UHGV virus genome: UHGV-0084588 | Length of the DNA stretch: 64,000 nucleotides | Direction: 5' to 3' (one strand) | From: a virus | Shown here: piece after piece, positions 890 to 39,890 of the stretch | Numbering within the stretch: the first letter of the stretch is position 1 | How the letters are laid out: every line of letters starts with the position of its first letter | The notes under the pieces: model-generated | The model's input: the letters and a program-made list of their open reading frames with translations, nothing else | What the model was told of the DNA's origin: nothing | The model's database searches: none | Program-made: the position numbers and the translations under genes

Positions 890-1368
890 TTCAATTTTCC
901 GTTGATGCAGAAAGATTGGCGTCATTTAAAGAGCGTGCTCAGCTTGCAATCAAAAACGGCTATATTGAAAAAGGAGTTCGTGACACCTGTAAGCTAATCA
1001 ACGACCATCCACATTTGGCGACAATGTGGAGTTGTGAAGGCCACGGTATGTATTCTAAGTCACCTGGAAATCTGCATATCGTTTTTGCAACAGACGCTAT
1101 TGGAAGTCAGATTCCAATGCAGATTATGTCTATACTTGCAAAATCGGATTTACCGAATTTCTGGAATCTTAGTTTGTGTCGTCTTTATATACCAGATGCG
1201 TACACGGATTTGGTATATCTTGAACCTGACTACGGATTAAATACCGACGACACTTCTTACTGGTCTTGGAAAATCGGATACATGTGCTTGATTAATCGCC
1301 CTGCGTTAGTTGAGACACGTCAAGCTCTTTATAAAGCATTTCACACAGTATTAGTTGAGAATAAATAA
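886..1368 (+). CDS. hypothetical protein
   Basis: 160-aa ORF; ATGA overlap with upstream gene; TAATG overlap with downstream gene. Confidence 0.6.
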   Translation: MIQFSVDAERLASFKERAQLAIKNGYIEKGVRDTCKLINDHPHLATMWSCEGHGMYSKSPGNLHIVFATDAIGSQIPMQIMSILAKSDLPNFWNLSLCRLYIPDAYTDLVYLEPDYGLNTDDTSYWSWKIGYMCLINRPALVETRQALYKAFHTVLVENK

Positions 1369-2060
1369 TGGCTACCAAACAAAAGAAACCTCGTAACAAA
1401 AAGTATAACCCGAAAGCAGCTGCTAACCGTACCGCGCACACCATCGCTGAAAATGCGTTAAACCGCATTACTTTCGTCGGTAGCTCTATTCGTCCTATCG
1501 GTCCGTACGCAGGTCGTGGTTTCCAGTTTACAACGTCACCGCGTATGCGCATGGCAGCGACTGATATGTTAATCGGTGGTCTGTTTGACGAACCGCGTAA
1601 CTGGAAACTTTGGGTTGCGCATCTCTACGAAACAGATAATGGTGTACAGGCAGAAACCATCGTTGCAACGCTTGACGACTACACGTTAAGTGATTTCTGT
1701 CAGCACGGTGACAAAATCATTAAATCGCTACGTGAGACAGAAGAAAACTACTTCGGTTACGCTTTCGTTGCTGCACCTAACGAACGTTATGATTTTGACC
1801 AGGGAGAAGAACGCTTACTGGAAAACTTCATGCATTCTGGACTGTTAGACAAATCCCTACACTTACCTGAAGAAGAACTGATGGTTACGCGTAAGGATAT
1901 GGTAACGTTGCTGTTAGCCGATCGTGGTCGTTTTGATGTTACCGAATCCCATGTACGTAAAGTACAGAAGCTCGTGGATAAGGTCGACGAAACTGACCTG
2001 GACACTAGTGAAGTCGCAACGCGTATCCAATCGGTAGTCAATCAGGAAGAGGATTACTAA
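1368..2060 (+). CDS. hypothetical protein with basic N-terminus
   Basis: 230-aa ORF; Lys/Arg-rich N-terminus (MATKQKKPRNKKYNPK); start overlaps upstream stop (TAATG). Confidence 0.6.
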   Translation: MATKQKKPRNKKYNPKAAANRTAHTIAENALNRITFVGSSIRPIGPYAGRGFQFTTSPRMRMAATDMLIGGLFDEPRNWKLWVAHLYETDNGVQAETIVATLDDYTLSDFCQHGDKIIKSLRETEENYFGYAFVAAPNERYDFDQGEERLLENFMHSGLLDKSLHLPEEELMVTRKDMVTLLLADRGRFDVTESHVRKVQKLVDKVDETDLDTSEVATRIQSVVNQEEDY

Positions 2061-2062
2061 AC

Positions 2063-2593
2063 GTGATAGCGCGACTTGCGAGTCGGTTTAAGCAACGTCG
2101 GGCAAAGGCGGTCGAATGGCCGCCTATTACGCATGACGAGAAAGTAGTTTCTTTTTTGGAATATAACAAAGACCTGAAAAGATTAGGTGAGTTAATGCAC
2201 TTAACGGAACGTCAGGTTTTTGCTAAGATTTCAAGTAGTGTTTTACGTAAACAGGTAATTCCACACCTATCCTTTTCAGGGCAGGTTTTTGCAATAGCGA
2301 CAGAGGAATTTTTATCGATAGCGGGGAATGAAACCCCACGTATACGGTACTCAGTTACAGGTTCATCAGATGCGGTTGGTACAGTTGATTTCGGACGGTT
2401 GTATCAGAGCATTAAAAGTACGGGCCATATACATGTTAAACGGGTATCAGAAACTTCTGTAGTGATTTATCACCGTACTGAGAATGATTTGTTCGGGCGT
2501 GTTATAAGGCTAACAAACTTACGCAGTTTTTACGTTGATTTGCTTACAGAGTTTTATCCAGAACCATGGTGCTTTATAGATGAAAATAAATGA
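2063..2593 (+). CDS. hypothetical protein
   Basis: 176-aa ORF with GTG start 2 nt after upstream stop; no strong RBS, so the start is uncertain. Confidence 0.45.
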   Translation: MIARLASRFKQRRAKAVEWPPITHDEKVVSFLEYNKDLKRLGELMHLTERQVFAKISSSVLRKQVIPHLSFSGQVFAIATEEFLSIAGNETPRIRYSVTGSSDAVGTVDFGRLYQSIKSTGHIHVKRVSETSVVIYHRTENDLFGRVIRLTNLRSFYVDLLTEFYPEPWCFIDENK

Positions 2594-2792
2594 CGGATAT
2601 ATCATCACGGCAATTGTTTCAACTGCGCTGATTGTAACAATGTTGATGTTCTACGTTAAGACTTCCGACGAATCACGTAAAGAATCTCTTTATCGTGAAT
2701 GTATGGCAGGTACTACGGTAGATAATCCACGCTACGCTGAATTGGTAATGGCGTGTACGGATTACGCTAAACGAATGGGAGGTGGAGGATGA
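2580..2792 (+). CDS. small membrane protein
   Basis: 70-aa ORF with one hydrophobic helix (YIITAIVSTALIVTMLMFYV); conserved Cys pair shared with the next gene. Confidence 0.5.
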   Translation: MKINDGYIITAIVSTALIVTMLMFYVKTSDESRKESLYRECMAGTTVDNPRYAELVMACTDYAKRMGGGG

Positions 2793-2986
2793 AAATTTGG
2801 TTACCGATTCTAGTTTTTATCCTTATCGCAGGAGCACTAGCAAGTGCTGAGTACGATAATCGTGTTCTAGAAACAAAGCGCGAACTGTATCAGGACTGTA
2901 TAAAGGATTACACACCGGGTACAGAGCTTCATGCACAGGCTGTAAAAAGTTGTGCACTGATGGCCGAATCGCAGACTCGTTCCTAA
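2789..2986 (+). CDS. small membrane/secreted protein
   Basis: 65-aa ORF; N-terminal hydrophobic segment (IWLPILVFILIAGALASA); similar layout to 2580..2792, likely a paralog. Confidence 0.5.
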   Translation: MKIWLPILVFILIAGALASAEYDNRVLETKRELYQDCIKDYTPGTELHAQAVKSCALMAESQTRS

Positions 2987-3360
2987 TGCGAATCTGGACG
3001 CTACAACTCGCTAAGTGGCGATTAGCTAAGCAGAAAGGATTTCGCGCAGTGGATATCACTGTGAAGTCAGGGCGAAAGGAACTCGCCCCAGACTGGGATT
3101 TCCTAATGGCGTATAAAAACTCTGCCCAAGACGCCGCCGCTGAGCGTGAATACACGATAAAGTATTTGTACAAACTCGAACGACTGTTAGATACCGATGC
3201 CGAAACGTTGGTCTCGTTGCTTAGACACGAAGATTTGGTTTTGATGTGCTATTGTCCCGCAGGTAAGTTTTGTCATCGTCACCTACTGGCGAACAAACTT
3301 CAAGAAGTGGGAATGACGTTCGGTATCGATGTTGAGTTATGTGGAGAACTAACGGTCTGA
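2986..3360 (+). CDS. hypothetical protein with Cys/His cluster
   Basis: Start set to the ATG at 2986 overlapping the upstream stop (TAATG); C-terminal CYCPAGKFCHRH motif suggests metal binding; followed by a strong terminator. Confidence 0.5.
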   Translation: MRIWTLQLAKWRLAKQKGFRAVDITVKSGRKELAPDWDFLMAYKNSAQDAAAEREYTIKYLYKLERLLDTDAETLVSLLRHEDLVLMCYCPAGKFCHRHLLANKLQEVGMTFGIDVELCGELTV

Positions 3361-3383
3361 TTTGATATTTAGCTGCAAAATGA

Positions 3384-3431
3384 CCGCCTACCGCCCGATT
3401 CTATGGGCGGTAGGTGTTTTTATTTTTTTTT
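3384..3431 (+). terminator. rho-independent terminator
   Basis: GC-rich inverted repeat CCGCCTACCGCCC...GGGCGGTAGGTG followed by a T-tract of about 14 nt. Confidence 0.75.
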
Positions 3432-3447
3432 GATCTGGGAGGTTTTA

Positions 3448-4008
3448 GTGACTGCTTACGTACCTGATTTAAGTTTGTCCTCAGCCGAACTAGTGGTCGC
3501 TTTAATCAACCACGATAACGGTTCACGGTTGTCTCTAAGCGAAATCCGTATTAGCAACACTACGGCAAACCCATCCCCGACCACTTCGCGTCGTAACACA
3601 CTGACAGAGATTACAAAAATCAGGAAACCTGATGGTGCTTCTGTAGTTGTTTATTACGACCGTTTGGATGCGGACGAAGTGTTAGCGTCTGAACCTATTT
3701 TGATTTCGTTAGATGGTACTGAAGACAACCTTCGTGACATTTTAGGTGTTGTAAATGAATTCTGCGGAACGAACTTACAACCCGAGGATTTACGTGCTTC
3801 AGATATCACCTTAGGTAAAGAACCCATTGCTGTCAACGTTGCTGACGATTCCCCTGCGTGGATGAATGCGTTTATGGTGACGTTATTTGATACAACCGAA
3901 CGGGCATTGGCAAACGAAGAAGATGCAATCTTCTGTATTGATGATGAGGCCGTTCTTACCTTTGAGGTTCCAGATGACGGTACGGCTGAAGAAAATCCGG
4001 CTATATGA
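3448..4008 (+). CDS. fibre-associated paralog-family protein (family A, copy 1)
   Basis: GTG start with GGGAGG RBS 5 nt upstream (the ATG at 3403 lies inside the terminator hairpin); paralogous to 10163..10678 (VPDLSL, LINHDNG, CG.NLQP.DL motifs) and more distantly to 18506, 19368, 22511 and 23107. Confidence 0.6.
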   Translation: MTAYVPDLSLSSAELVVALINHDNGSRLSLSEIRISNTTANPSPTTSRRNTLTEITKIRKPDGASVVVYYDRLDADEVLASEPILISLDGTEDNLRDILGVVNEFCGTNLQPEDLRASDITLGKEPIAVNVADDSPAWMNAFMVTLFDTTERALANEEDAIFCIDDEAVLTFEVPDDGTAEENPAI

Positions 4009-4078
4009 GCTTGACGCTTTTACTGGTAATGGAGGCCAAAGTAAACTTTTATCAAGACTTAGTAAACCCAGATCATGA
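3974..4078 (+). pseudogene. truncated remnant of a tail-fibre N-terminal anchor domain
   Basis: 34-codon ORF MTVRLKKIRLYELDAFTGNGGQSKLL... closely resembles the N-termini of the fibre at 4213 (MAKAVKKIRLHDLRPYTGDIGEGVLLF) and of 10678 (MAELVGKVRIHELETLSEDITGVVVLA); overlaps the end of 3448..4008 in another frame, as the intact pair does at 10678. Confidence 0.4.
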
Positions 4079-4157
4079 GAACGCGGAATTGGACATCACT
4101 TTCACGTTAGAAGTTGATGGATTAAAACCAGTATAATAATCCGCTTATAAAAATGTT

Positions 4158-4190
4158 GGGGAGGTGCTTTACCTCCCCAGATCTTTTAGC
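4158..4190 (+). promoter_or_regulatory. stem-loop upstream of the tail-fibre start
   Basis: Perfect 8-bp inverted repeat GGGGAGGT-gcttt-ACCTCCCC followed by a short T-rich stretch, after a TATAAAAA box; terminator or 5' UTR structure. Confidence 0.4.
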
Positions 4191-4212
4191 TCCAGATAGA
4201 GAATTAAATATC

Positions 4213-7200
4213 ATGGCTAAAGCGGTAAAGAAAATACGTTTACACGATTTGCGTCCATACACCGGGGATATCGGTGAAGGCGTTTTACTTTTTTCGAAAG
4301 ACGAAAAAGATTATAAGTTACCCGTCCGCGAAATCGTTGCGGATATTGACACCGTCAGAAACGCGGTTGCTGATGCACAAACAGCTGCAGCCAAATCGCA
4401 GCAGTCTGCAACAGAAGCTACGCAAGCAAAAAATTTAGCGGAAACCGCGAAGCAACAAACTGACACGTTAGCTTCCACAGTCAGTGAGCAAGCGGGAACC
4501 GTTGCCACTAAAACTGCTGAAGTTAACAAAAAACACGCTGAAGTTTTAGCAGCGAAAACTGCCGTAGATACTGTTTCACAATCAGTAAATGAGAAGGCTC
4601 AAGCTGTCGCCACATCCGAACAATCTGTGACGGCTACGGCGGCTGATGTAACTAAGAAAGCAGAAACGGTTACGCAACAGGCCGGACAAGTTCAACAGAC
4701 GGCTACCAGCGTTGAAAATACCGCAGCTTCAGTCGAGGCCAGTAAAGGTGCAGTGGAGAAAATCGCTGCACAGGTCGCGAAAGATAAAGAAAGCTCAGAA
4801 GGGGCAGCTACGCGTTCGGAGTCAGCTGCCCTACGTGCGGAGAAAATCGCTGCCCAAGGATTAGTTGACGCTACTACAACCGGTAAAGGTATTGTTAAAC
4901 TTAACGATACCCTGACAAGCGATTCCGTGACTGAGGCTGCTACACCGTCCACGGTTAAACAGCTGAACGACGATTTACAGTTAAAAGCCAATAAACATTC
5001 GCCGAATTTTACGGGTAACCCGACATCCCCAAAACCGCCGAAGGACTCGAATGACACGAGTATCTCCACAACGTCCTGGGTGCGTGACGCGATTGCGGAA
5101 TTGGTTGGTTCTTCACCCGAGACGCTAAATACCTTAGCGGAATTAGCTGAGGCGTTAGGTAATGACCCTAACTTCGCAACAACGATCACTGAGGAACTTG
5201 CGCAGAAACAACCTCTCAGCCCGTTACTCACCGCTATTGCCGCAGTCACCACAGCGGCAAACAAACTCATGTATTTCACCGGCAGTAATAAAGTCGGATT
5301 AACAGATTTTACAGAAACGGCCAGATCCTTGTTAGCGAAAGGGTCAACTGCGGATATCATTAACTTCCTGGGTTTGAAACCCACCGTTGATAAAGCAAAC
5401 GGCGCATTACAGAAAAACTCTAACGGTGCTGATATCCCAAATAAAGAAACTTTTGCTCGCAACATCGGCCTATCTCCTGATACCTATCTGCGTTTCCGTG
5501 GCGAAATGCCTGTAGATGCTGATATTAACACATTTGCTCCAGATGCTAATTACACAGGAACATGGTCCAAGTCGACATCAACCAATGCGTCGATGGCAAA
5601 ACACTTCCCAGAAGACGGTGCAGTCGGTTATCTGGAAGTGTATAAAGCGGGCAACTACAGTGGAGCGCAACGTTTTACCTGCCGTAATGGTAACGTGTAC
5701 AACCGTATGTTGTCAGGTGCGTGGAACGGAACTAATGGCCCGTGGTCACCGTGGAGAATGGTAACTACCGGTGTACGTCCGTTATCTACATCGATCGATC
5801 TGAACTCCTTAGGCGGCGCTGAGCACATGGGTAACTGGCGTAACTCGTCCAGTTCGTTAGCGGTGTTCGACAGACATTATCCTGAAGAGGGCGGTAATGC
5901 GCAAGGCGTATTAGAAGTCATGGAAGGCGGTCTTTATGGACGGTTGCAACGATACACCACACGACATGGTACGATGTATGTCCGTGGTTTGACTGCGACT
6001 TGGGATTCTTCTAATCCGCAGTGGGAAGATTGGATTCAGGTTGGGTATCAGGTAGACGGTGCCTACTATAAGGGTAGCTTTAACGACTTAACTAAACCGG
6101 GCCGCTTTAGTGTTACCGGTGAGGCTACAGACAGTCCGTTAACAGACTCTGCTGGCGCAACCTTGCTAGGTGTTTGCGAAGTTACCTTACGCTTAGACGG
6201 TTCAGGCGTTGAACAAAATTATACCACATACGGTACAGGCGCAACTTCGAAAGGTCGCAAGTTCCAACGAATTCGTACAGGAAACGCCTGGAGCGAATGG
6301 CGAGAGATTTTCACATCCTATTCACTCCCGTTGACTTTAGGGATCGGTGGGGTTGCTGCTAAGGTCGATCCGTTAGACTGGCAAACATTCGACTTCGTTC
6401 CTGGCCAGATGATAAGTACACCGTTGAATACCATGAAAAATATTCCTGCGGGAATGGATTGGGGTGTTATCGACGGTAACTTGGTCACTATTCTTGTAGG
6501 GGCGTCGGAGGACACCGGTACTGGCCGGAGTATGTTGGTCTGGCGTGGTACAGTGTCTACTGCTAACTATCGCTTCTTTGCTGTTCGCGTCGCTGGTGAA
6601 AAGGGTAAACGTACTATTACTAGCCGCCAGATGCCCGTATTGAATGCAGCGCATACGTGGGCAGAAAAACAGACCTTTGCAAAAGGGTTATCGGGCGAAT
6701 TGACAGGTAATGCGTCAACGGCAACAAAACTGAAAACAGCCCGTTTAATCGGCGGTGTAAGTTTCGACGGTAGCGGCGACATTAGCCTCCCTGGTGTGAA
6801 CCAACAGGGTAATCAAAACACCTCTGGGAACGCGGGAACCGCAACCAAATTACAAACGGCTCGAAACATCAACGGTGTGAAATTTGATGGGTCTAGAGAC
6901 ATCAATATCAACACGTTGGTAGGACGTGGACGTGTTACTGCACTGTCTGGTTCAAACAAAGGTACACCCGGTATTCAGATGTACGAAGTTTACAATAACG
7001 GTTATCCAACCGCTTATGGTAACTTACTGCATTTGGGTGGCGCTACTGCGCTAGGTGAAGGCGAGCTGTTAATCGGATGGCCGGGGACGAGCGGTGCGCA
7101 CGCGCCTGTTTATATTCGTAGTCGACGTGATACGGCTGATGCACCGTGGTCAGATTGGGCACAAGTTTACACTGCCCGTGACAGCATTCCTGGCGTAAAT

Positions 7201-8655
7201 GCCACCGGTAATCAAGATACTACCGGCAACGCCGCTACCGCGACGAAACTGAAAACCGCTCGCAGGATCGGAGGCGTTACCTTTGACGGTACAGGTGATA
7301 TCAATTTACCGGGCGTTAACCAGCAAGGCAACCAGAATACGACAGGTAATGCAGCGACCGCTACTAAGTTACAAACCGCACGTAAGATCGGCGGTGTGCT
7401 TTTCGATGGGACAAAAGACGTTAATCTTCCTGGCGTAAACCAAACCGGTAACCAATCGACTACGGGGAATGCGGCGACAGCGACTAAGCTCCAGACTGCG
7501 CGAAATATAGGTGGTGTAGCTTTTGATGGTACTAAAGACATCAGTTTACCTGGAGTAAACCAAACAGGTAATCAGGCGACTACCGGAAACGCAGCCACGG
7601 CAACAAAGTTGCAAACCGCAAGAACCATTAACGGTATCGCATTTGACGGCACTAGAAATATATCGTTAGGACCTGCCGATATAGGTTGTCCGGCATCGCC
7701 TAGTGGTTGGTTAGAAACTGGCAAAGATGGCGGCGCAATAACTACAGCACAGCTAGTGACGTTATTGAAAAATAACGGCGCATTTACCACAAGATCGTGG
7801 GTTGCTCGCTGTGCATGGGCTTATGCCGCTAGTGCGTCCATACCACACAGCGAGACGGGTTGTGGTGTTATTCCGTTAGCTGGGGCCGTTATAGAAGTGA
7901 TTAGTAACGGTAATAGCACAAACAACTACACGATCCGTATAACGACTGCCACAACGGCGAGCGTCGGTGGCGCACTCACTAATGCGGAGTTTATCTACGT
8001 ATTTAACGGCGATACATACTCACCAGGCTGGCGTCGTGCTTACAATACGAGAAACAAGCCAACTGCTGCAGAAGTGGGTGCACTACCTTCGGGGGGCGGT
8101 ACTATAGGCGGCGATTTAACCGTTAACGGTAAATTGGCCACTAAATACCCTGATTTTCGAATCGCTTACGGTACCTACGGTTTTATTTTACGTAACGACG
8201 GTGCCAATACCTATTTCTTAGTAACCGACGCCGGACAAGCCGCAACGGGTTCCTGGAACGGATTACGCCCGTTGTCTTTTAATAATTCTAACGGCCAAGT
8301 AAACTTTGGACATAACGTTACTGGCAACGGTAACGGTTCGTTTAACGACGTACAGATTCGTTCTGACCGTCGTAACAAACGTAATCTGGTGAAGCTGGAT
8401 AAAGCTTTGGATCGGTTAGAGTTACTAACCGGTTATTTGTACGAAATTCAGCATCCGGATGACGGCTGGCAGACTTCTGTAGGTCTAATTGCTCAGGACG
8501 CATTAGAAGCGTTACCTGAACTTGTGTCTGAGGATGATGATGCCATTTCAGGCGAAAAACGTTTACGTCTAAACTACAATGGCGTTATTGCGCTGTTAGT
8601 AGAGGGTATGAAAGCGTTGCGTCAAGAGGTTAACGAAATTAAAGGAAGATCCTAA
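4213..8655 (+). CDS. long tail fibre protein with C-terminal intramolecular chaperone (S74-like)
   Basis: 1480 aa from the ATG at 4213. N-terminal Ala/Gln/Thr-rich segment; four copies of a W-containing ~70-aa knob-like domain; six 40-aa repeats (GNQNTTGNAATATKLQTAR.IGGV.FDGT.D..LPGVNQ) of the phage tail-fibre repeat type; C-terminal ~97 aa (SDRRNKRNLVKLDKALDRLELLTGYLYE...) resembles the self-cleaving chaperone of T5 pb1 / K1F endosialidase. Confidence 0.85.
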   Translation: MAKAVKKIRLHDLRPYTGDIGEGVLLFSKDEKDYKLPVREIVADIDTVRNAVADAQTAAAKSQQSATEATQAKNLAETAKQQTDTLASTVSEQAGTVATKTAEVNKKHAEVLAAKTAVDTVSQSVNEKAQAVATSEQSVTATAADVTKKAETVTQQAGQVQQTATSVENTAASVEASKGAVEKIAAQVAKDKESSEGAATRSESAALRAEKIAAQGLVDATTTGKGIVKLNDTLTSDSVTEAATPSTVKQLNDDLQLKANKHSPNFTGNPTSPKPPKDSNDTSISTTSWVRDAIAELVGSSPETLNTLAELAEALGNDPNFATTITEELAQKQPLSPLLTAIAAVTTAANKLMYFTGSNKVGLTDFTETARSLLAKGSTADIINFLGLKPTVDKANGALQKNSNGADIPNKETFARNIGLSPDTYLRFRGEMPVDADINTFAPDANYTGTWSKSTSTNASMAKHFPEDGAVGYLEVYKAGNYSGAQRFTCRNGNVYNRMLSGAWNGTNGPWSPWRMVTTGVRPLSTSIDLNSLGGAEHMGNWRNSSSSLAVFDRHYPEEGGNAQGVLEVMEGGLYGRLQRYTTRHGTMYVRGLTATWDSSNPQWEDWIQVGYQVDGAYYKGSFNDLTKPGRFSVTGEATDSPLTDSAGATLLGVCEVTLRLDGSGVEQNYTTYGTGATSKGRKFQRIRTGNAWSEWREIFTSYSLPLTLGIGGVAAKVDPLDWQTFDFVPGQMISTPLNTMKNIPAGMDWGVIDGNLVTILVGASEDTGTGRSMLVWRGTVSTANYRFFAVRVAGEKGKRTITSRQMPVLNAAHTWAEKQTFAKGLSGELTGNASTATKLKTARLIGGVSFDGSGDISLPGVNQQGNQNTSGNAGTATKLQTARNINGVKFDGSRDININTLVGRGRVTALSGSNKGTPGIQMYEVYNNGYPTAYGNLLHLGGATALGEGELLIGWPGTSGAHAPVYIRSRRDTADAPWSDWAQVYTARDSIPGVNATGNQDTTGNAATATKLKTARRIGGVTFDGTGDINLPGVNQQGNQNTTGNAATATKLQTARKIGGVLFDGTKDVNLPGVNQTGNQSTTGNAATATKLQTARNIGGVAFDGTKDISLPGVNQTGNQATTGNAATATKLQTARTINGIAFDGTRNISLGPADIGCPASPSGWLETGKDGGAITTAQLVTLLKNNGAFTTRSWVARCAWAYAASASIPHSETGCGVIPLAGAVIEVISNGNSTNNYTIRITTATTASVGGALTNAEFIYVFNGDTYSPGWRRAYNTRNKPTAAEVGALPSGGGTIGGDLTVNGKLATKYPDFRIAYGTYGFILRNDGANTYFLVTDAGQAATGSWNGLRPLSFNNSNGQVNFGHNVTGNGNGSFNDVQIRSDRRNKRNLVKLDKALDRLELLTGYLYEIQHPDDGWQTSVGLIAQDALEALPELVSEDDDAISGEKRLRLNYNGVIALLVEGMKALRQEVNEIKGRS
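6689..6909 (+). repeat. tandem 120-nt coding repeats (block 1, about 2 units)
   Basis: Repeated nucleotide units encoding ...TGNASTATKLKTAR.IGGV.FDGS.DI.LPGVNQ...; the minus-strand ORF 6567..6782 is a shadow of these. Confidence 0.7.
7189..7669 (+). repeat. tandem 120-nt coding repeats (block 2, 4 units)
   Basis: Units begin at about 7189, 7309, 7429 and 7549 (CCTGGCGTAAAC / CCGGGCGTTAAC ... GGTAA.CA...AC.AC.GG.AA.GC.GC.AC.GC.AC.AA); the minus-strand ORF 7212..7541 is a shadow. Confidence 0.8.
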
Positions 8656-9437
8656 TGGCAGTTGTCGGCGTAGGTGGTTGGATTGGTTCTTCAGCAAAAG
8701 CTGAAGCTGGTAACGAATGGATGTCTGGCGCGATGCGCACACTTGGTGTGCCGGTTCCAGGCTGGATGTCGCAATTGGCGGGAAAATCAAAAGAGGTCCA
8801 TTATTCTATTGGTGCTAACCATAGCTATAATAAGGATACTCTTATTAACTATTTACGTTCTTTAGGCTCTACTGCTGTCGTTGTGACTATTACGGGGGAT
8901 TTAGTGTCCCATAGTAGCACGGTTCCTTGTTTAGAATTCCCTAGCAATCTTCCAAATTCGTATATTACCCTCATCATCAATCCTGGGGTTACAGTATACG
9001 GCAGAGGAGGCAACGGCGGTTCTAACTCACCAGGCGGTGCAGGTGGAACCGCAATACAGAACGGAATAGGAAACAGACTGCGTATAACCAACCGTGGCGC
9101 TATTGCCGGAGGCGGTGGCGGCGGTGGCGGCGGTAACAGGGGTAGACTAACATTTGGTGGTGGCGGTGGTCGCCCATTCGGTGCTGGTGGGTCTTCCTCT
9201 CATATGAGTTCCGGTGCGGCTGCTGGTACTATTTCCGCTCCTGGTAGAGGATCTGTTGGTGAGGGGTCTCTTAGTGCATATACAGGCGGTTCGGGTGGTA
9301 ATGTCGGTGCTGCTGGAGGAAGATGTAATACTCATGGTAACGGTACAGAATATAACGGCGGAGCAGCTGGTAAAGCTGTTACTGGTAATGCGCCAAGATG
9401 GGACGCAGTAGGTGCAATATATGGTTCACGTGTTTAA
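8655..9437 (+). CDS. gp38-like tail-fibre adhesin with glycine-rich motifs
   Basis: N-terminus MAVVGVGGWIGSSAKAEAGNEWMS and the YGRGGNGGSNSPGGAGG / GGGGGGGGG / GGGGGRPFGAGGS segments match, from memory, the T2/T6-type gp38 adhesin; start overlaps the fibre stop (TAATG). Confidence 0.75.
   Translation: MAVVGVGGWIGSSAKAEAGNEWMSGAMRTLGVPVPGWMSQLAGKSKEVHYSIGANHSYNKDTLINYLRSLGSTAVVVTITGDLVSHSSTVPCLEFPSNLPNSYITLIINPGVTVYGRGGNGGSNSPGGAGGTAIQNGIGNRLRITNRGAIAGGGGGGGGGNRGRLTFGGGGGRPFGAGGSSSHMSSGAAAGTISAPGRGSVGEGSLSAYTGGSGGNVGAAGGRCNTHGNGTEYNGGAAGKAVTGNAPRWDAVGAIYGSRV
9108..9170 (+). repeat. GGC/GGT codon run encoding poly-glycine
   Basis: ggaggcggtggcggcggtggcggcggt... low-complexity triplet repeat inside the gp38-like gene. 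Confidence 0.6.
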
Positions 9438-9497: not shown

Positions 9498-10010
9498 ATG
9501 GCGGTAGCATCAGGATGGGTCGGATCTTCAGCTAAGAATGAAACTGGCGAACAATGGATGAGCGCTGCGGGTAGTAAATTAGGATTGGGTAGACCATTTA
9601 TGATGAGTCAAATGGTGGGCCGATCTACGGGTTGTAAAATTGCGACCGCTTACTACAAAGGGAATCCTCCTGATAAAGTTGAAAACTGGGGGGCCGTAGG
9701 TTCAGATTGGCCATTGGCTGAAAAGAACAAAGGCACAATTACTGGTGCTTCGAGCTGTGGTTTAGGTCGTTTAGTGGGGATCGTACTTACGCAAGCTCAC
9801 TACATTTCTGGTGTTCCACCCACTGCGGCTTTATACATCGCAGGAGGAAGGGCAAGTAATATTACAGTAACAGTTGGTGGGGTCTCACAAGTTTTCACCT
9901 ATAATAGTGTTATTAACGGTTTTCACTATTACTGGCAAGGAACACCTAGTTCGGCCTTTATAGCAGCAATGAAGAGAACGGGTGTTACACAAGATTTGAA
10001 AATTAGTTAA
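9498..10010 (+). CDS. gp38-like adhesin paralog (no glycine-rich region)
   Basis: N-terminus MAVASGWVGSSAKNETGEQWMSAAG parallels 8655..9437, with a different C-terminal domain; GGGGGTAAAATG RBS. Confidence 0.6.
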   Translation: MAVASGWVGSSAKNETGEQWMSAAGSKLGLGRPFMMSQMVGRSTGCKIATAYYKGNPPDKVENWGAVGSDWPLAEKNKGTITGASSCGLGRLVGIVLTQAHYISGVPPTAALYIAGGRASNITVTVGGVSQVFTYNSVINGFHYYWQGTPSSAFIAAMKRTGVTQDLKIS

Positions 10011-30414: not shown

Positions 30415-33400
30415 TTAAGATGTAAACATAAGATTGAACTGGAGCTTATCGATATCGCGAGTTTGTGCTGGGTTAACCGCATCGTACGTGGTTGCCACGT
30501 AGACCGTTAACGTGCCGTCAGAAAACGCGGTTTTCACCGGTGGTGTAGTCCCTGTCTGTCCATCAGTTACAATGACGACAGGTTGAGCCGGGAGTTGACG
30601 AAACTGACTCTTAACCGCTTTATACACCAAACCAGATTGTGCCGCTTGCTCTGTGGCGGTGTACACGATAAACGGTGTGTCGATATCTGTCTGTTTAATG
30701 ACAGTGTTCGTCTCAACGTCAATCAGCTGAACAGCACCAAATTTGGTCCGGTAACTATCGTATTCATTTTTTGGAATGACAAACGTAGCATGAAGGCGGA
30801 CTTCGGCGGCTGGCTTAAATCCCGCGTGTTCTTTTTCCAGGTAACTGTTAGCAGTTAGCGTTACTGTCTGTTCAGTCATCGTACCGCCAGACTGATTTAG
30901 CCCGTAACGAACTTGAGTTATACCTGTCGGGGCCGCAAGCCTGATTTTCAGTCGACGATTAGTAGTACCAGGATCGCCAGGTACTTTAACACGCAGACTC
31001 AATGCCAGATATGCATACTCGCCGGTAGTCGGTTTCGTATACGCACCCAACCACTTCATGTTCGCGGTTGCTGCTTGTTTGTTCTCAGAAGCAGTAGCCG
31101 CTGCAACGTTCGCAGCAACCGCTTTCTGCCAGAACTGGTCAGCGCAGTTCTCATACGCCACCCTGCTGATACTTTTATAACCTGAATAGGTTTCCTGTAC
31201 CGGCAACCTGGGCCGCGTTGCAATCCCGGACAACGTATTCCATTTCTGGCCATCGACATACCCAGCACCCTTGCTCGCAGATGCTGTAATGGCTTTAACG
31301 GGTTTATTAACCACTGTTAATAGTGGACCAGTTTTCCTGTCGAACGCCTGCGCCACATCGTGCTGATCAACAACCGAGGCATGATTTTCCAGCTCTTTTA
31401 CACGACCTAACCGTTTTACTTTATCGATACTGATATCCGTAATACGGTTCGAATCAGTGGTTACTGTCCCAACAAACAGTCTCGACGAGGTATCAGCTAA
31501 CTGCTCTAAACCGATGCGGTATTGGGCAGTAGAACCGACCACTTCAGCATAAACGTAGAATGTCTGGTTAGCGTGATTAGTCGGGAATTCATCGCTTAAA
31601 TCAACGGACCATCTTGGAACGGTATATCTTTTATTTCCAAAACTTAACTCGGTTTCCTCCGTCAGATAGAAATTCCAACCGCTCTGTGTTTGTACGCCGC
31701 CAATAATAATCTTATCGATAACAGTATATTTTTTGTTAAACAAATCAGAGATTCTATACTGTTCGCCACCGAGATACAACTCGTTTAAATCTTCCGAGTT
31801 ACAAGTCAATAGCGCGATGCCCGAGAGATCGGGTATATAGACTTCAGATGTATTATTCAGCGTATACGTATAGCCCCACGCCCGATGAATTTCGCCGGTA
31901 AACCATTCTCCTTTTTTAGTCAAGTTTATCCCAAAAGCAAAAGAAATCTCTGATCCTACAAGATTCCCGCCAACCAGGTTATGTATTGAGAATCTGAACT
32001 TTTGTCCGTCTTGCGAATAAAGGAAAACTTGACCGGAGCGTTGTTTAAGTTCACCATTAAAAGCTGTGGGTGAGAGATTAATGGCGTTACTGGCCACTTT
32101 TTCCCTGAACGTCATCATTCTCGCTTCCGAACTAACGAACCTTATGACCCCGTTGGTTATAGTCGGTTTTACCTGAAAGAAGTAAAAAGCAAACTTATTT
32201 ACCCCGTCAGTGTCTTTATAGATAAGACTCACTATCGCGATACAAAGCGGACCACCAGACATCGTTTGACCAAGCACCCAAAAGGACAAACTGTAGTTGT
32301 TCTTTTTGGTCTTAGCTACGCTAATCCGCTCATAGGCGTTGCCGTTAGAAGCCCCAGAGAACTGGCTGGACTGAACAATATTAGTCAACTTCGCCCATTC
32401 TGCCGCATCGATAGACAACCGATCACTAGCCACCGTAGTGGTACCGTAAACAACTTTACATGGTTTACTTTCAGCACCGATAAAGTAAGCCCCATCTAGT
32501 AGACCTTTCGGTATGTCTGGCGTAACAACCAGCGGTATATTTGTCAATACGCCGTATTCGTTCGCTTTTTTTTCAACACGGCGGGATGTTGGTCCAAACC
32601 CGCCGTATCCAGGATAACCATAAGTCGTATCTTTATCATATTCGGCTTCAATGAAATAAGCCGTTTTTTGATGTTTAAGCCATACTTTGTTTGTTCCTGG
32701 GAAGAACAATGGGAAGGTCATAGACGGTTTCCACACCGAACCCACCACAGGGTTTATCCGATTTTCAAACGTAGATTGCCCCTCATACCCCGCACTCAAC
32801 TTAACATAGTCCAGATAACTAACTCCTTCTGGGAGTTTCTGGTAATGGAGAGATGGTGCAAGTTGTTTTTCTGTCGAACAGCAGCAAGAATAAACCATAT
32901 CACCGACACAGATTCTATTGTCGGCCATATAGCCAGAACTTCGAGTAGCCCATTTCCATTTCAGCTCTATTTTTGTTCCGTCTTTTAAGTAGCAACCTGT
33001 AGTATCGATTTTGATTGGGAAGATGTTAGTTGTCTCTAACCCAACCTCCCCGGTTAATAGGTCGAGACGATAAGCACCATTCCATGGCCCGAATGTGGTA
33101 CCTTTCGTTGAAGAAAAACCAAGACAAACGCCAGACACGCCGACGGTTAACAAGTGACCGTCCTTAACAACGGGCGTTATCCATCTTGACACCCCTCTAG
33201 TTAATTGTAAATTCACTGTCCACAACGCTTTGCCTTCCGCAGTGAAGTAGGCAAGACGCTTCGTATTCGGATTATCTACATCGAACGCGCCAGGTTCAAC
33301 CAAATCGGCACACTTACCGATTTTTCGTGTAGAGCTTAAATCAACCTGTTCAAACCGATCGGTTTTATTAAGCCGCAATAACCCAACACGGAACATAGGT

Positions 33401-35601
33401 TGCGGAGTATCCTTAATGTAGTCCACCAGACTATTGTTTTTCAGATCGGCCATTAGCATCGTACGCAAAACATAAACGCCATTATCGGCTATGACCACAC
33501 GATCCATGAACATATTCGGCACAAATTCCCATGTTGTTTCTGAAACAAATTCTGAGAAAGTTACCAACCTGACATCGGTATGTTTGGTGTAATCCATTGA
33601 ACCGTTCAGTTTAACTAAATAATAATTATCGTCGCTGCCCTTCGCTATAAATGCTTCGGTACCAGTAACGGTAATTTCTTTTAGTTCCACCCCCGGATAA
33701 TTCGTCTCTAACCCTTTCGGCTTATAACGGAAAGTTGTTTTGTAAATTTCACCGAGACTTTTGTCGTTTTTTAACCCAGCAACAGCGTAATAAATACCCT
33801 CAGTTCCCGGAAGGGCAGATTTAGAACTAATTAAAGCATAAAGCTTACCTTGTTGTACCCCTATAACCATCTGGAGCGCATCCATGTTTTTACCATAACC
33901 TTCGTAATTACCCATCGACAAGATCGGCAATATCGAATTGTTGGTATATTTGCTCCCGGCCGTTGTCCATGCGGGCAAGAGGGTATTCAGTTTATCAGAG
34001 ACCTTCTTAATCTCTTTTGCGAACAACCACCCTTGGCGTGATGTGACGGCTTTATCATTCGTGGTATCAATCGCATCCCACAGCTGTAAGATACCGTCCA
34101 CTGTTGCGCTACCGATCGGGACATTATCCAAATCAGCGGTAGTGTGCGTGTGTACCTTCAAACTTTTATTTTTCAGCACGTTCGCTAATGCTTTTGTTAC
34201 CGGTTTAGCGATGGGTGTGGTGTTATTCATCTTATCGATACCGAAATCGGCCTTCGTTAAGGTTAACACCATGTTGTCGCCTGTCTTAACAAACCCTTTA
34301 CCGTTAACCGTGTAGTCGTCGTCAACGTACAAGTCCAACCGGTCTTTTAATTCGGTCACAGCCTTTTGGGAAATAGCAGTGCCTAGCGCTACAGAGGTTG
34401 CGATATTCGTAATCGAAAACACCCCATAAACCGACTCGGTTGCTGTGGGAATATTCGCATTCAACGTTAGTGGGTTAGACTGCTTCGCTGTACCGTACGG
34501 TTTTACGGTGTCAGACGATTTGAAATAGGCGTTCGCTTCAAGTAACGTTACAGACGTCAGGTACATGTTCACCATTTCTGGTGTAACCAAATACACAGAG
34601 TTATAGACCGGTGCTAATACATCCTGTTCTGACCCAGAATGTACCCAAAGCGTATTCAGCCCCGCACTAAACTCAACCGCCAAACCGGATTCGTTGTTGT
34701 CTTGGTCTGCTTTAATCACTAACGGTTGTGGTGAAGTAATTAACCACTTATCACCACGGATGCTGATGATGTGTCCACCCGGTGTTTTAAACGTTAGTTC
34801 ATTACCGTTCGTGGTACCCCAACGACCGTAAACGGTACCGAGGGCTTCGCCCATTAACTGTTCAACGTCTGATTGCTCAATGCCCGCCGAACCCATCAGC
34901 GTAGCCAGTTGGTCAATTGTCAACCCAAACGCTTTTGTAGCGTCAACAGCACGTCCTAAAACCGGAAGGGCCCCAACGTCATTGGTCGTATACTGGTGAG
35001 CGTTAGGATTAAGGTGGTGTTGGTATAGTTCTTCATCGAAAATCTTTTTACCGTTCTCGTAAATCAGGTTAGTGACTTCGGTGAAGGCCGCATCTAACTC
35101 TGTTGAACGCTGAATGATTTTCTTGCGGATATCGTTCAACGCTTTAACGACCTCGTCCCTCAGAATCGCTTCTTCTAAGTTAGCAGGGGGGTCGATTGGT
35201 TGAATAACCGGCGCGTACGCCATTAACTCCGACCAGTCCACGTTACGTGGGTCTTTCAGGTCAGTACGAACTAAGAACTTCCCGATTTCAGATTGCGGTA
35301 CACGGTATTGACGTGCTACCCCTAAAATCTCATATTCGATTTCTGTTGCAGTAAGCAACATAAACCCGCCATAAATCTGATCTTGTTCAGCTTCTGCGAG
35401 TTCTTTAAAGTAATAGCCTAAATAGTAGTCCAACCCCTCAATCAGAGTACGACGTCCGTTAGGCGCGGTATCGTCGGCTACTGTGAGTTTTAATCCGATA
35501 CGATAAAAAGGTCCTTCAGGCGGAATGACCACGTTAAATCGGTTAGGGTACGTCGTTGTGCTTAGCGTACCGTTAAACTGCGCCGCGTCTTCTCTCGGCA
35601 T
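30415..35601 (-). CDS. giant tailspike/tail-fibre protein (1728 aa)
   Basis: N-terminal VIPPEGPFYRIGLKLTV...LIEGLDYYL anchor motif (T7 gp17 / T4 gp10-like as recalled); a tail-fibre-type segment with KVHTHTTADL; AGGAG RBS. Confidence 0.75.
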   Translation of the reverse strand: MPREDAAQFNGTLSTTTYPNRFNVVIPPEGPFYRIGLKLTVADDTAPNGRRTLIEGLDYYLGYYFKELAEAEQDQIYGGFMLLTATEIEYEILGVARQYRVPQSEIGKFLVRTDLKDPRNVDWSELMAYAPVIQPIDPPANLEEAILRDEVVKALNDIRKKIIQRSTELDAAFTEVTNLIYENGKKIFDEELYQHHLNPNAHQYTTNDVGALPVLGRAVDATKAFGLTIDQLATLMGSAGIEQSDVEQLMGEALGTVYGRWGTTNGNELTFKTPGGHIISIRGDKWLITSPQPLVIKADQDNNESGLAVEFSAGLNTLWVHSGSEQDVLAPVYNSVYLVTPEMVNMYLTSVTLLEANAYFKSSDTVKPYGTAKQSNPLTLNANIPTATESVYGVFSITNIATSVALGTAISQKAVTELKDRLDLYVDDDYTVNGKGFVKTGDNMVLTLTKADFGIDKMNNTTPIAKPVTKALANVLKNKSLKVHTHTTADLDNVPIGSATVDGILQLWDAIDTTNDKAVTSRQGWLFAKEIKKVSDKLNTLLPAWTTAGSKYTNNSILPILSMGNYEGYGKNMDALQMVIGVQQGKLYALISSKSALPGTEGIYYAVAGLKNDKSLGEIYKTTFRYKPKGLETNYPGVELKEITVTGTEAFIAKGSDDNYYLVKLNGSMDYTKHTDVRLVTFSEFVSETTWEFVPNMFMDRVVIADNGVYVLRTMLMADLKNNSLVDYIKDTPQPMFRVGLLRLNKTDRFEQVDLSSTRKIGKCADLVEPGAFDVDNPNTKRLAYFTAEGKALWTVNLQLTRGVSRWITPVVKDGHLLTVGVSGVCLGFSSTKGTTFGPWNGAYRLDLLTGEVGLETTNIFPIKIDTTGCYLKDGTKIELKWKWATRSSGYMADNRICVGDMVYSCCCSTEKQLAPSLHYQKLPEGVSYLDYVKLSAGYEGQSTFENRINPVVGSVWKPSMTFPLFFPGTNKVWLKHQKTAYFIEAEYDKDTTYGYPGYGGFGPTSRRVEKKANEYGVLTNIPLVVTPDIPKGLLDGAYFIGAESKPCKVVYGTTTVASDRLSIDAAEWAKLTNIVQSSQFSGASNGNAYERISVAKTKKNNYSLSFWVLGQTMSGGPLCIAIVSLIYKDTDGVNKFAFYFFQVKPTITNGVIRFVSSEARMMTFREKVASNAINLSPTAFNGELKQRSGQVFLYSQDGQKFRFSIHNLVGGNLVGSEISFAFGINLTKKGEWFTGEIHRAWGYTYTLNNTSEVYIPDLSGIALLTCNSEDLNELYLGGEQYRISDLFNKKYTVIDKIIIGGVQTQSGWNFYLTEETELSFGNKRYTVPRWSVDLSDEFPTNHANQTFYVYAEVVGSTAQYRIGLEQLADTSSRLFVGTVTTDSNRITDISIDKVKRLGRVKELENHASVVDQHDVAQAFDRKTGPLLTVVNKPVKAITASASKGAGYVDGQKWNTLSGIATRPRLPVQETYSGYKSISRVAYENCADQFWQKAVAANVAAATASENKQAATANMKWLGAYTKPTTGEYAYLALSLRVKVPGDPGTTNRRLKIRLAAPTGITQVRYGLNQSGGTMTEQTVTLTANSYLEKEHAGFKPAAEVRLHATFVIPKNEYDSYRTKFGAVQLIDVETNTVIKQTDIDTPFIVYTATEQAAQSGLVYKAVKSQFRQLPAQPVVIVTDGQTGTTPPVKTAFSDGTLTVYVATTYDAVNPAQTRDIDKLQFNLMFTS

Positions 35602-35619
35602 CGTAAAGACTCCTACTTT

Positions 35620-35658
35620 TAAATAAAATGGATACCCCTCCCCATTACAGGGAGGGGT
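35620..35658 (-). terminator. hairpin between tailspike genes
   Basis: ACCCCTCC-ccattacag-GGAGGGGT, followed on the minus strand by a U-rich stretch and the RBS of the next gene. Confidence 0.5.
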
Positions 35659-35695
35659 TACCTACGGACACACAACTGCCCGCAGGCAGTCTGTC

Positions 35696-39880: not shown

Positions 39881-39890
39881 AAAATTCTCC

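What the first reader, a model, noticed from the sequence alone, without database searches (positions are those of the whole stretch)
6689..7669. Tandem 120-nt repeats and four knob-like domain copies inside the fibre gene
Two blocks of near-identical 40-aa repeats (about 2 and 4 units) are split by a ~93-aa insertion resembling three upstream ~70-aa W-containing domains (G..YxR...W..W pattern). High nucleotide identity between units makes this a likely site of unequal recombination and fibre-length variation.
Basis: seen in the sequence. Interest (0 to 1): 0.4.

Follow-up and report, generated by a model that had tools for sequence, protein, structure and literature searches.

The report
Old shaft repeats in a phage tail fibre
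This stretch encodes six copies of a very common 40-amino-acid building block of a phage tail-fibre shaft, one of them carrying an inserted globular knob. The copies are ancient and strongly diverged at the DNA level, so this is an ordinary modular fibre and not an active recombination hotspot.

Summary
The repeats are real. Six 40-aa (120-nt) units start at 6706, 6826, 7225, 7345, 7465 and 7585 in a 1480-aa tail-fibre gene (4213-8655, +) of an SPN3US-like jumbo phage. A 91-aa domain (6910-7182) sits inside unit 2, which gives the 2 + 4 appearance.

The claim of high nucleotide identity is wrong. Units are 68-88% identical as protein but only 56-75% as DNA, and the longest shared exact run is 11 nt. 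Where the amino acid is conserved, codon choice is as random as codon usage allows (120 identical codons of 378, 136 expected). Each unit is closest to the same-position unit in relatives (73-95%) and not to its neighbours, so there has been no recent homogenisation.

Unit number does vary over evolutionary time. One relative lacks exactly unit 4, homologous fibres range from u-K-u to uuuu-K-uuu, and other proteins carry up to 15 units.

The three upstream domains are knob-like: the model matches the R1 pyocin fibre at E 5e-6, and NCBI names homologues "pyocin knob". The inserted domain shares their Y-x-R...W-x-x-W motif and strand order, but its homology is only moderately supported.

The unit occurs in about 12,500 protein clusters and has no Pfam model. 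Its only relative in the PDB is the trimerising spike of phage L Dec.

Verdict: ordinary mosaic fibre; low interest.

The parts
4213..8655 (+). Tail-fibre gene (1480 aa). The ATG at 4153 is an unlikely start.
   Evidence: ORF. PHROG tail-fibre families score down to E 1e-286. Pfam finds Phage_fiber_2, Gp34_trimer and Peptidase_S74. A terminator-like hairpin at 4156-4180 overlaps the upstream ATG. The annotated starts in relatives agree with 4213.
5485..5766 (+). Knob-like domain K1 (aa 425-518)
   Evidence: AF2 pLDDT is about 87-92. K1-K2 hhalign probability is 99.8%, E 9e-30. Homologues are named 'pyocin knob domain-containing' by NCBI.
5767..6048 (+). Knob-like domain K2 (aa 519-612), a duplicate of K1
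   Evidence: Smith-Waterman z = 23.6 against K1. hhalign 99.8%.
6049..6318 (+). Knob-like domain K3 (aa 613-702), a remote copy
   Evidence: hhalign K1-K3 91% (64 columns) and K2-K3 83%. The pairwise sequence score alone is not significant.
6319..6672 (+). Further beta-rich globular domain D5 (aa 703-820), not knob-like by sequence
   Evidence: AF2 strands with pLDDT 68-85. No hhalign similarity to K1-K4.
6706..6825 (+). Shaft unit U1 (40 aa)
   Evidence: Unit HMM E 1.9e-28.
6826..6909 (+). Shaft unit U2, first 28 residues (core)
   Evidence: Unit HMM positions 1-28, E 9e-19.
6910..7182 (+). Inserted globular domain K4 (aa 900-990), nested in unit 2
   Evidence: Five predicted strands in the same order as K1. 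Smith-Waterman K2-K4 p = 2e-4 and K3-K4 p = 4e-3. hhalign K3-K4 90% but over 18 columns only. Foldseek matches to R2/R1 pyocin fibres have probability 0.75-0.80 at E about 0.9.
7183..7224 (+). Shaft unit U2, last 14 residues (linker SIPGVNATGNQDTT)
   Evidence: Unit HMM positions 27-40, E 3.9e-5.
7225..7344 (+). Shaft unit U3
   Evidence: Unit HMM E 3e-28. 95% nt identity to the same-position unit of L001 and L002.
7345..7464 (+). Shaft unit U4 (its orthologue is absent from relative L002)
7465..7584 (+). Shaft unit U5
7585..7668 (+). Shaft unit U6 (28-aa core). It is the last unit and the junction to the exchangeable distal part.
   Evidence: L002 and protein P0018 carry different sequence after this unit.
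7696..8127 (+). Mu/P1 S-type distal domain (aa 1162-1305)
   Evidence: phmmer match to PDB 8ju3, stretch E 9e-28.
7978..8277 (+). Gp34_trimer domain (aa 1256-1355)
   Evidence: Pfam PF21446, E 1.3e-19. Matches T4 gp34 and Mu S chains in the PDB.
8362..8526 (+). Peptidase_S74 intramolecular chaperone (aa 1384-1438). The likely self-cleavage site is at S1384.
   Evidence: Pfam PF13884, E 5e-10. PDB 6f45 (long tail fibre distal subunit), E 2.7e-12. The Ser-x4-Lys motif is read from the sequence. Cleavage itself is inferred.
8655..9437 (+). Gp38-type tail-fibre adhesin gene (context only, not part of the repeats)
   Evidence: Pfam GP38, E 2e-70, plus Gp38_N. PHROG 2056.

Best explanation
Region 6689-7669 encodes the distal shaft module of a long, mosaic, trimeric tail fibre of an SPN3US-like jumbo phage.

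It consists of six copies of a 40-residue unit, GNAATATKLQTAR-x-IGGV-x-FDG-xx-DI-x-LPGVNQ-x-GNQ-x-TT. Each unit is predicted to form a short turn plus a beta-hairpin. By analogy with the only studied relative, the C-terminal spike of phage L Dec, a unit probably folds only when three chains intertwine. On this reading each unit adds a fixed increment of rigid shaft (inferred).

A globular domain of about 91 aa is nested in unit 2, between the hairpin core and the linker. It would form a bead on the shaft. It has the same strand order and terminal Y-x-R...W-x-x-W motif as the three pyocin-knob-like domains encoded upstream (5485-6318).

The units are ancient paralogues held by strong purifying selection on the protein. 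Their DNA has drifted to the maximum that codon choice permits, so homologous unequal crossing-over inside this array should be rare.

Unit number still changes over evolutionary time by rare in-register 120-nt events, as with unit 4 against relative L002. The end of the array also serves as a junction at which different distal receptor-binding parts are joined.

Receptor specificity is expected to reside further downstream: in the Mu S-like and Gp34_trimer domains, in the tip that is matured by the S74 chaperone, and in the gp38 adhesin encoded next (inferred from family membership).
For: Anatomy: searches give six units, with the knob nested at unit position 28/29.

Protein conserved while DNA is scrambled: dN is 0.10-0.35 with synonymous differences saturated, and the longest shared run is 11 nt. 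Identical codons number 120 of 378 against 136 +/- 10 expected. The analysis was repeated on relatives.

Unit orthology across genomes: 0.73-0.95 nt identity on the diagonal against 0.56-0.73 off it.

Unit indel and junction: L002 has 2 + 3 units. The register switch falls exactly at the start of a unit, and there is no nucleotide similarity after the last unit.

Variable architectures: uKu up to uuuuKuuu in homologues. Up to 15 units per protein, with 12,571 cluster representatives at E <= 1e-3.

Dec link: the unit HMM matches residues 98-130 of the Dec spike at E 0.0032. That spike holds the Dec trimer together and is unfolded in monomers (PMC6449081, PMC11398494).

Knobs: the K1-K3 model matches 6cl5_A at E 4.9e-6. 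NCBI names homologues 'pyocin knob'. The pyocin knob is described as a mobile fibre pseudo-domain (PMC12143355).

Distal end: S74, Gp34_trimer and gp38.

Against: The Dec match is borderline (E 0.0032) and covers 26 of 40 positions. The Dec spike structure is itself unsettled: a beta-helix model against an AF2 antiparallel barrel.

Homology of K4 to K1-K3 rests on moderate statistics. hhalign K1-K4 is 24% and K2-K4 is 2%.

A spacer role and a lack of receptor contact for the units are inferred, not shown.
Confidence: 0.8

Rival explanations
1. The array is a recently homogenised tandem repeat whose high nucleotide identity drives frequent unequal homologous recombination. This would produce fibre-length variants within phage populations, like a contingency locus.
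For: Unit number differs between relatives: L002 has 3 units after the knob and the window has 4. It also differs among homologous fibres. In other fibres some units are more alike, up to 88% nt identity with a 47-nt shared run in L006.
Against: In this window the units share 56-75% nt identity and at most 11 identical bases in a row. Codon identity is at or below random expectation. Units are orthologous by position across four genomes. The 93%- and 86%-identical relatives keep the same 2 + 4 array. By my own knowledge, RecA-type recombination needs roughly 20-30 identical bases.
Confidence: 0.07
2. The units are not mere spacers but repeated low-affinity glycan-binding sites along the shaft. 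They would mediate the first reversible contact with O-antigen or capsule, and the knob domains would act as lectin-like beads. Unit number would then tune avidity and not length.
For: Variable positions within the unit (4, 10, 14, 16, 19, 23, 24, 27, 34, 38) alternate with invariant ones, as expected for a fixed scaffold with exposed variable residues. The authors of the Dec paper speculate that the Dec C-terminal spike could bind carbohydrate (PMC6449081). Some of the weaker Foldseek matches of the K1-K3/D5 model are lectins (E 6e-4 to 1e-2).
Against: The same unit, at 70-85% amino-acid identity, occurs in thousands of fibres with different distal domains. That argues for a generic structural role. 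A dedicated gp38 adhesin and exchangeable distal domains are present. No binding data exist.
Confidence: 0.1
3. The nucleotide dissimilarity of the units is itself selected. Codon 'scrambling' would protect an essential repeat from deletion by recombination.
For: In the jumbo-phage lineage, identical codons at conserved residues fall slightly below random expectation: 120 against 136, P 0.06, and 99 against 118, P 0.03, in L001.
Against: The four arrays of this lineage are orthologous and not independent. The deficit is marginal. Independent arrays in E. coli elements (L005-L007) show a slight excess of identical codons (P 0.02-0.05). Plain saturation explains the data.
Confidence: 0.03

Closest known systems
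R-type pyocin tail-fibre knob domains (PDB 6CL5/6CL6; 'pyocin knob' domain as named by NCBI)
   Same: K1-K3 are compact beta domains of about 90 aa strung along a trimeric fibre. The AF2 model matches 6cl5_A (E 4.9e-6). Homologues at 60-67% identity are named 'pyocin knob domain-containing'. The knob is a known mobile fibre module (PMC12143355).
   Different: Sequence identity to the pyocin fibre is only about 15%. There are four copies here, one of them (K4) nested inside a shaft repeat. K4's own match to the pyocin knob is not significant (E about 0.9).
C-terminal trimerising spike of the phage L capsid decoration protein Dec (PDB 6E3C)
   Same: It shares the motif NA-x-TA-x-KL-x-TAR-x-I...G...FDG-x-A-x with the 40-aa unit (HMM E 0.0032). 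The spike folds only in the trimer and holds it together.
   Different: Dec has a single copy with a 7-residue insertion, fused to an OB-fold capsid binder. Here there are six tandem copies in a tail fibre. The Dec spike structure has not been determined experimentally.
Phage_fiber_2 repeats (PF03406), the mixed alpha/beta fibrous repeats of T4 gp34 residues 744-877
   Same: Both are tandem repeats of about 40 aa that build a trimeric fibre shaft. One PF03406 copy is present in this same protein at aa 221-260.
   Different: It is a different sequence family. The six units do not match PF03406. T4 gp34 and gp37 contain no copy of the unit.
Mosaic tail fibres of P1/Mu (S protein) and T-even phages (gp34/gp37 with gp38 adhesin, S16/T2 type)
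   Same: The module order and distal parts agree: a Mu S-like domain, Gp34_trimer, an S74 chaperone and a downstream gp38 adhesin. The unit-knob-unit cassette is common in fibre proteins on E. coli contigs of about 90-110 kb, a size compatible with P1-like elements.
   Different: Here everything is fused into one 1480-aa chain in a jumbo phage of about 222-226 kb. There is no invertible segment. No phage record matches at the DNA level.

Membership tests
Pyocin-knob-like fibre domain | Fold similarity to the knob domains of R1/R2 pyocin fibres (6CL5/6CL6) | tested here: met
   This holds for K1-K3 only. Foldseek of the aa 417-830 model (pLDDT 79.5) matches 6cl5_A at E 4.9e-6, probability 1.00. 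The match is to a multi-domain chain, so the domain-by-domain assignment is inferred.
Pyocin-knob-like fibre domain | The same fold similarity, tested for the inserted domain K4 | tested here: inconclusive
Pyocin-knob-like fibre domain | Sequence match to the curated domain model (CDD cd19958) | not testable with these tools
   CDD is not among the libraries. Pfam and NCBIfam give no hit for K1-K4. Indirect support: NCBI names close homologues of K1-K3 'pyocin knob domain-containing'.
   K1-K2 is certain (99.8%). K1-K3 scores 91% and K2-K3 83%. K3-K4 scores 90% but over 18 columns only. K1-K4 scores 24% and K2-K4 2%. Smith-Waterman shuffles give K2-K4 p 2e-4 and K3-K4 p 4e-3. Strand order and the terminal motif are shared.
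Phage_fiber_2 (PF03406) repeat | HMM match of the 40-aa units | tested here: not met
   PF03406 matches only aa 221-260. The unit segments give no Pfam hit at E <= 0.1. Proteins rich in units also give none.
Dec-spike-like trimerisation unit | Sequence similarity to Dec residues 99-134 | tested here: inconclusive
   The unit profile matches Dec 98-130 at E 0.0032 and 20.8 bits. It is the only PDB hit.
Dec-spike-like trimerisation unit | Folds only as an intertwined trimer | not testable with these tools
   Only monomer prediction is available. The monomer model shows isolated hairpins and low-confidence linkers.
Recombinogenic or concertedly evolving tandem repeat | High nucleotide identity between units, with paralogues more alike than orthologues | tested here: not met
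   Units share 56-75% nt identity with a longest run of 11 nt. Orthologous units are 73-95% identical against 56-73% for paralogues. Codon identity is no higher than random.
Recombinogenic or concertedly evolving tandem repeat | Unit-number differences among close relatives | tested here: met
   One of the three relatives examined (L002) lacks unit 4. L001 and L004 are the same as the window.
T2/S16-type distal long tail fibre (gp37 with gp38 adhesin) | C-terminal S74 intramolecular chaperone, tip similarity to S16 gp37, and a gp38 adhesin gene immediately downstream | tested here: met
   PF13884 at E 5e-10. PDB 6f45_A at E 2.7e-12. PF05268 at E 2e-70 for 8655-9437.

The most novel reading that the evidence does not exclude
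The 40-residue unit may be one of the most widespread fibre-shaft building blocks that still lacks a curated family and an experimental structure. It occurs in about 12,500 protein clusters at 50% identity, with up to 15 copies per protein. It would share ancestry with the trimer-only folding spike of the phage L capsid decoration protein. In addition, its DNA copies in this phage lineage may be kept dissimilar by selection against intragenic recombination, and not by drift alone.
Probability: 0.1. Interest if true: 0.4.

Novelty: new member of a known kind. Interest (0 to 1): 0.2.

Why it matters
The finding has little consequence for biology at large. It is another example of the modular, mosaic construction of phage tail fibres.

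It has three practical uses. First, it maps the module boundaries of a jumbo-phage fibre exactly: unit edges, the nested knob, and the junction after unit 6. These are the natural cut points for engineering fibre length or swapping receptor-binding parts. Second, it shows that repeat arrays which look recombinogenic at the protein level can be fully scrambled at the DNA level, so amino-acid repeats alone should not be read as instability. Third, it flags an abundant 40-aa shaft unit that has no Pfam model and whose only studied relative is the Dec spike. That makes it a reasonable target for family curation and structure determination.

Tried and rejected
- A self-BLASTP of the fibre returned nothing usable. 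I replaced it with Smith-Waterman scores against shuffles and hhalign.
- phmmer of the repeat region against the PDB hit only the designed 'Cake' beta-propellers. I reject these as an artefact of a shared 40-residue periodicity and G/D/N-rich composition, with per-stretch E of 2-7.
- I expected the units to be the T4 gp34-type repeats. They are not: T4 gp34, gp35, gp36 and gp37 contain no copy. The gp34 744-877 repeats are of the PF03406 type.
- Pfam, NCBIfam and the PDB gave nothing for the knob segments by sequence. NCBIfam hits on the whole protein are coiled-coil noise from the Ala/Gln/Thr-rich N-terminus.
- A literature search for the motif string found nothing relevant.
- Selection for codon scrambling was tested and is not supported generally.
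- A DNA-level role for the repeats (regulatory or mutagenic target) was considered and dropped. The differences between units sit at synonymous positions, antisense ORFs in the region are short and unsupported, and promoter-like sites are not enriched.
- megablast of the gene against the phage collection found no match.


Full report
**1. What is there**

The finding lies inside a 4443-nt gene (4213-8655, + strand; 1480 aa). It is a tail-fibre gene. PHROG tail-fibre families match with E down to 1e-286. Pfam finds Phage_fiber_2 (aa 221-260), Gp34_trimer (aa 1256-1355) and the Peptidase_S74 intramolecular chaperone (aa 1384-1438). Solved fibres of Mu, T4 gp34 and a long-tail-fibre distal subunit (6f45) match the distal third.

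The in-frame ATG at 4153 is probably not used. The strongest terminator-like hairpin of the region (4156-4180) overlaps it, and relatives are annotated from the position equivalent to 4213.

The window belongs to a jumbo phage. A 1439-aa protein (39891-44210, - strand) is about 52% identical to proteins of SPN3US/SEGD1-like phages of about 240 kb. The nearest DNA relatives of the fibre gene are two circular 222-kb 'plasmids' of Enterobacter ludwigii (L001) and E. coli (L002), and a Logan contig (L004) that is 93% identical over window 981-8645.

**2. The observation**

Six in-register units of 120 nt / 40 aa start at 6706, 6826, 7225, 7345, 7465 and 7585. A profile built from them recovers each one, at E about 1e-28 for full units and about 1e-18 for the two 28-aa cores.

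The apparent split into 2 + 4 has a specific cause. After position 28 of unit 2 comes a 91-aa insert (aa 900-990, nt 6910-7182). The remaining 14 residues of the unit (SIPGVNATGNQDTT) follow the insert and match profile positions 27-40. The array is therefore six units with one domain nested in unit 2.

'Near-identical' is an overstatement. Amino-acid identity between units is 68-88%.

**3. The DNA of the units is scrambled**

- Pairwise nucleotide identity is 56-75%, and no two units share more than 11 consecutive identical bases.
- Non-synonymous distances are 0.10-0.35, while synonymous differences are saturated.
- At aligned positions with the same amino acid, 120 of 378 codon pairs are identical. 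Random codon draws from local codon usage give 136 +/- 10. Codon choice therefore carries no trace of common descent.
- Each window unit is most similar to the unit at the same position in L001 (0.73-0.95) and L002, and not to its neighbours (0.56-0.73). The units were already distinct before these phages diverged, so there is no concerted evolution.

**4. Unit number does vary over evolutionary time**

L001 and L004 have the same 2 + 4 array. L002 has 2 + 3. Its fourth unit is the orthologue of window unit 5 (87%). The alignment register switches by exactly 120 nt at the first codons of a unit, so L002 lacks unit 4.

Units 4 and 5 are 25% diverged from each other, whereas orthologues differ by 5-13%. 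The duplication is therefore older than the split of these phages, and the L002 state is most simply a later in-register deletion or an exchange with another fibre gene (inference).

After the last unit, L002 has no nucleotide similarity to the window until the next gene. Protein P0018 likewise carries a different domain between the last unit and the shared C-terminus. The end of the array thus acts as a junction for exchangeable distal parts.

Among homologues the cassette occurs as uKu, uuKu, uuKuu, uuKuuu, uuuuKuuu and other forms. The knob is always at the same place within a unit.

An exhaustive profile search finds the unit in 12,571 cluster representatives at E <= 1e-3, with up to 15 copies per protein.

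In other arrays the units can be more alike, up to 88% nt identity with a 47-nt shared run in L006. Recent duplication does happen elsewhere, just not in this window.

**5. What the unit is**

No Pfam model matches it, either here or in proteins with 10-15 copies. It is not the PF03406 repeat. T4 gp34 and gp37 contain no copy.

The only PDB sequence that the unit profile finds is the phage L decoration protein Dec, residues 98-130 (E 0.0032). The shared motif is NA-x-TA-x-KL-x-TAR-x-I...G..FDG. That segment is the C-terminal spike of Dec. It provides nearly all the trimer contacts, it is unfolded in monomers, and its structure is still not determined experimentally (PMC6449081, PMC11398494).

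I therefore read the units as trimer-dependent shaft modules. This is an inference. No trimer model could be made here.

**6. The knob-like domains**

The AF2 model of aa 417-830 (pLDDT 79.5) resolves four beta-rich domains separated by dips in confidence.

- K1 (aa 425-518) and K2 (aa 519-612) are clear duplicates: z 23.6 and hhalign 99.8%.
- K3 (aa 613-702) is a remote copy: hhalign 91% to K1 and 83% to K2.
- The model matches the R1 pyocin fibre 6cl5_A at E 4.9e-6.
- NCBI names many homologues at 60-67% identity 'pyocin knob domain-containing'.
- The pyocin knob has been described as a mobile pseudo-domain of fibres (PMC12143355).

The nested domain K4 shares the strand order and the terminal motif (VYIRSR...PWSDWAQV against VYNRML...PWSPWRMV). 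The statistics are moderate:

- Smith-Waterman p is 2e-4 against K2 and 4e-3 against K3.
- hhalign gives 90% to K3 but over 18 columns only, and it is low to K1 and K2.
- The pyocin-fibre matches have probability 0.75-0.80 at E about 0.9.

'Four knob-like copies' is therefore probable but not proven.

A fifth domain (aa 703-820) shows no similarity to the knobs.

**7. How it most likely works**

The fibre has this order, from the N-terminus:

1. an N-terminal attachment region and a coiled-coil-like stretch;
2. a PF03406 repeat;
3. three knobs and another globular domain;
4. the six-unit shaft with its nested knob;
5. a Mu S-like domain and a Gp34_trimer domain;
6. a tip matured by the S74 chaperone.

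The motif S1384-DRRN-K1389 fits the Ser/Lys dyad spacing known from endosialidase-type chaperones. That comparison is my own knowledge, and cleavage is inferred.

The next gene (8655-9437) encodes a gp38-type adhesin (PF05268, E 2e-70). A second protein with the same N-terminal attachment domain follows.

Within this design the repeats set shaft length and geometry, and they provide a conserved junction for swapping distal modules. Receptor specificity is expected in the tip and the adhesins.

**8. Comparison and novelty**

This is a new member of a known kind: a mosaic tail fibre built of repeated shaft units and mobile knob domains.

Two small points go beyond routine. One is how widespread the unit is, combined with the absence of a curated model or a solved structure for it. 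The other is its link to the Dec spike.

A test for selection on codon dissimilarity was marginal in this lineage (P 0.03-0.15, with arrays that are not independent). It went the opposite way in three independent arrays.

**9. Verdict**

Evolutionary variation in unit number is real, but there is no sign of a current recombination hotspot. Interest is low.

Noticed in passing
window 8655-9437 and 9498-10010: Two consecutive genes after the fibre encode proteins with the Gp38_N attachment domain. The first is a full gp38-type adhesin (PF05268, E 2e-70). The second is a 170-aa protein with only the N-terminal domain in common. The 93%-identical relative L004 carries a different 181-aa Gp38_N protein at this place, so the adhesin cassette is exchanged independently of the fibre.
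   Followed up: partly
window 4026-4083, against L001 2567-5928 and L002 2557-5928: The two 222-kb 'plasmid' relatives carry about 3.4 kb more DNA directly upstream of the fibre gene: a 462-nt ORF and a 3009-nt 'phage tail protein'. The window and L004 lack it.
   Followed up: no
window 5747-6289: The part of the fibre gene that encodes the end of K1, all of K2 and most of K3 has no blastn match to L001 or L002, although both flanks align at 72-86%. It is a separate mosaic patch within the same gene.
   Followed up: no
L004 about 5930 (window about 6908): In the closest relative, a 1-nt deletion exactly at the unit 2 / knob junction (ATCAATATCAAC becomes ATCAATACAAC) splits the fibre into ORFs of 902 and 557 aa. 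This could be an assembly error in a short-read Logan contig or a real frameshift.
   Followed up: partly
L001 (NZ_CP134650.1) and L002 (NZ_CP173450.1): Relatives of this SPN3US-like jumbo phage are deposited as circular, non-mobilizable 222-kb 'plasmids' of Enterobacter ludwigii and E. coli isolates. This suggests phage genomes carried along with, or co-assembled with, bacterial isolates.
   Followed up: no
window 30415-44213 (- strand): Three consecutive giant ORFs (1728, 1394 and 1440 aa) have no Pfam match. The one I searched (39891-44210) is conserved at about 52% identity in SPN3US/SEGD1-like and Erwinia jumbo phages, where it is annotated as hypothetical.
   Followed up: partly
window 9107-9134: A short GGC/GGT tandem repeat (period 9, GGCGGTGGC, 2.7 copies) lies inside the gp38-type adhesin gene.
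   Followed up: no
L006 485-1700 (E. coli contig ABZFOZ010000118.1): In another fibre with the same unit, two non-adjacent units are 88% identical in DNA and share a 47-nt exact run. Recent unit duplication or exchange does therefore occur in other members of the family.
   Followed up: partly
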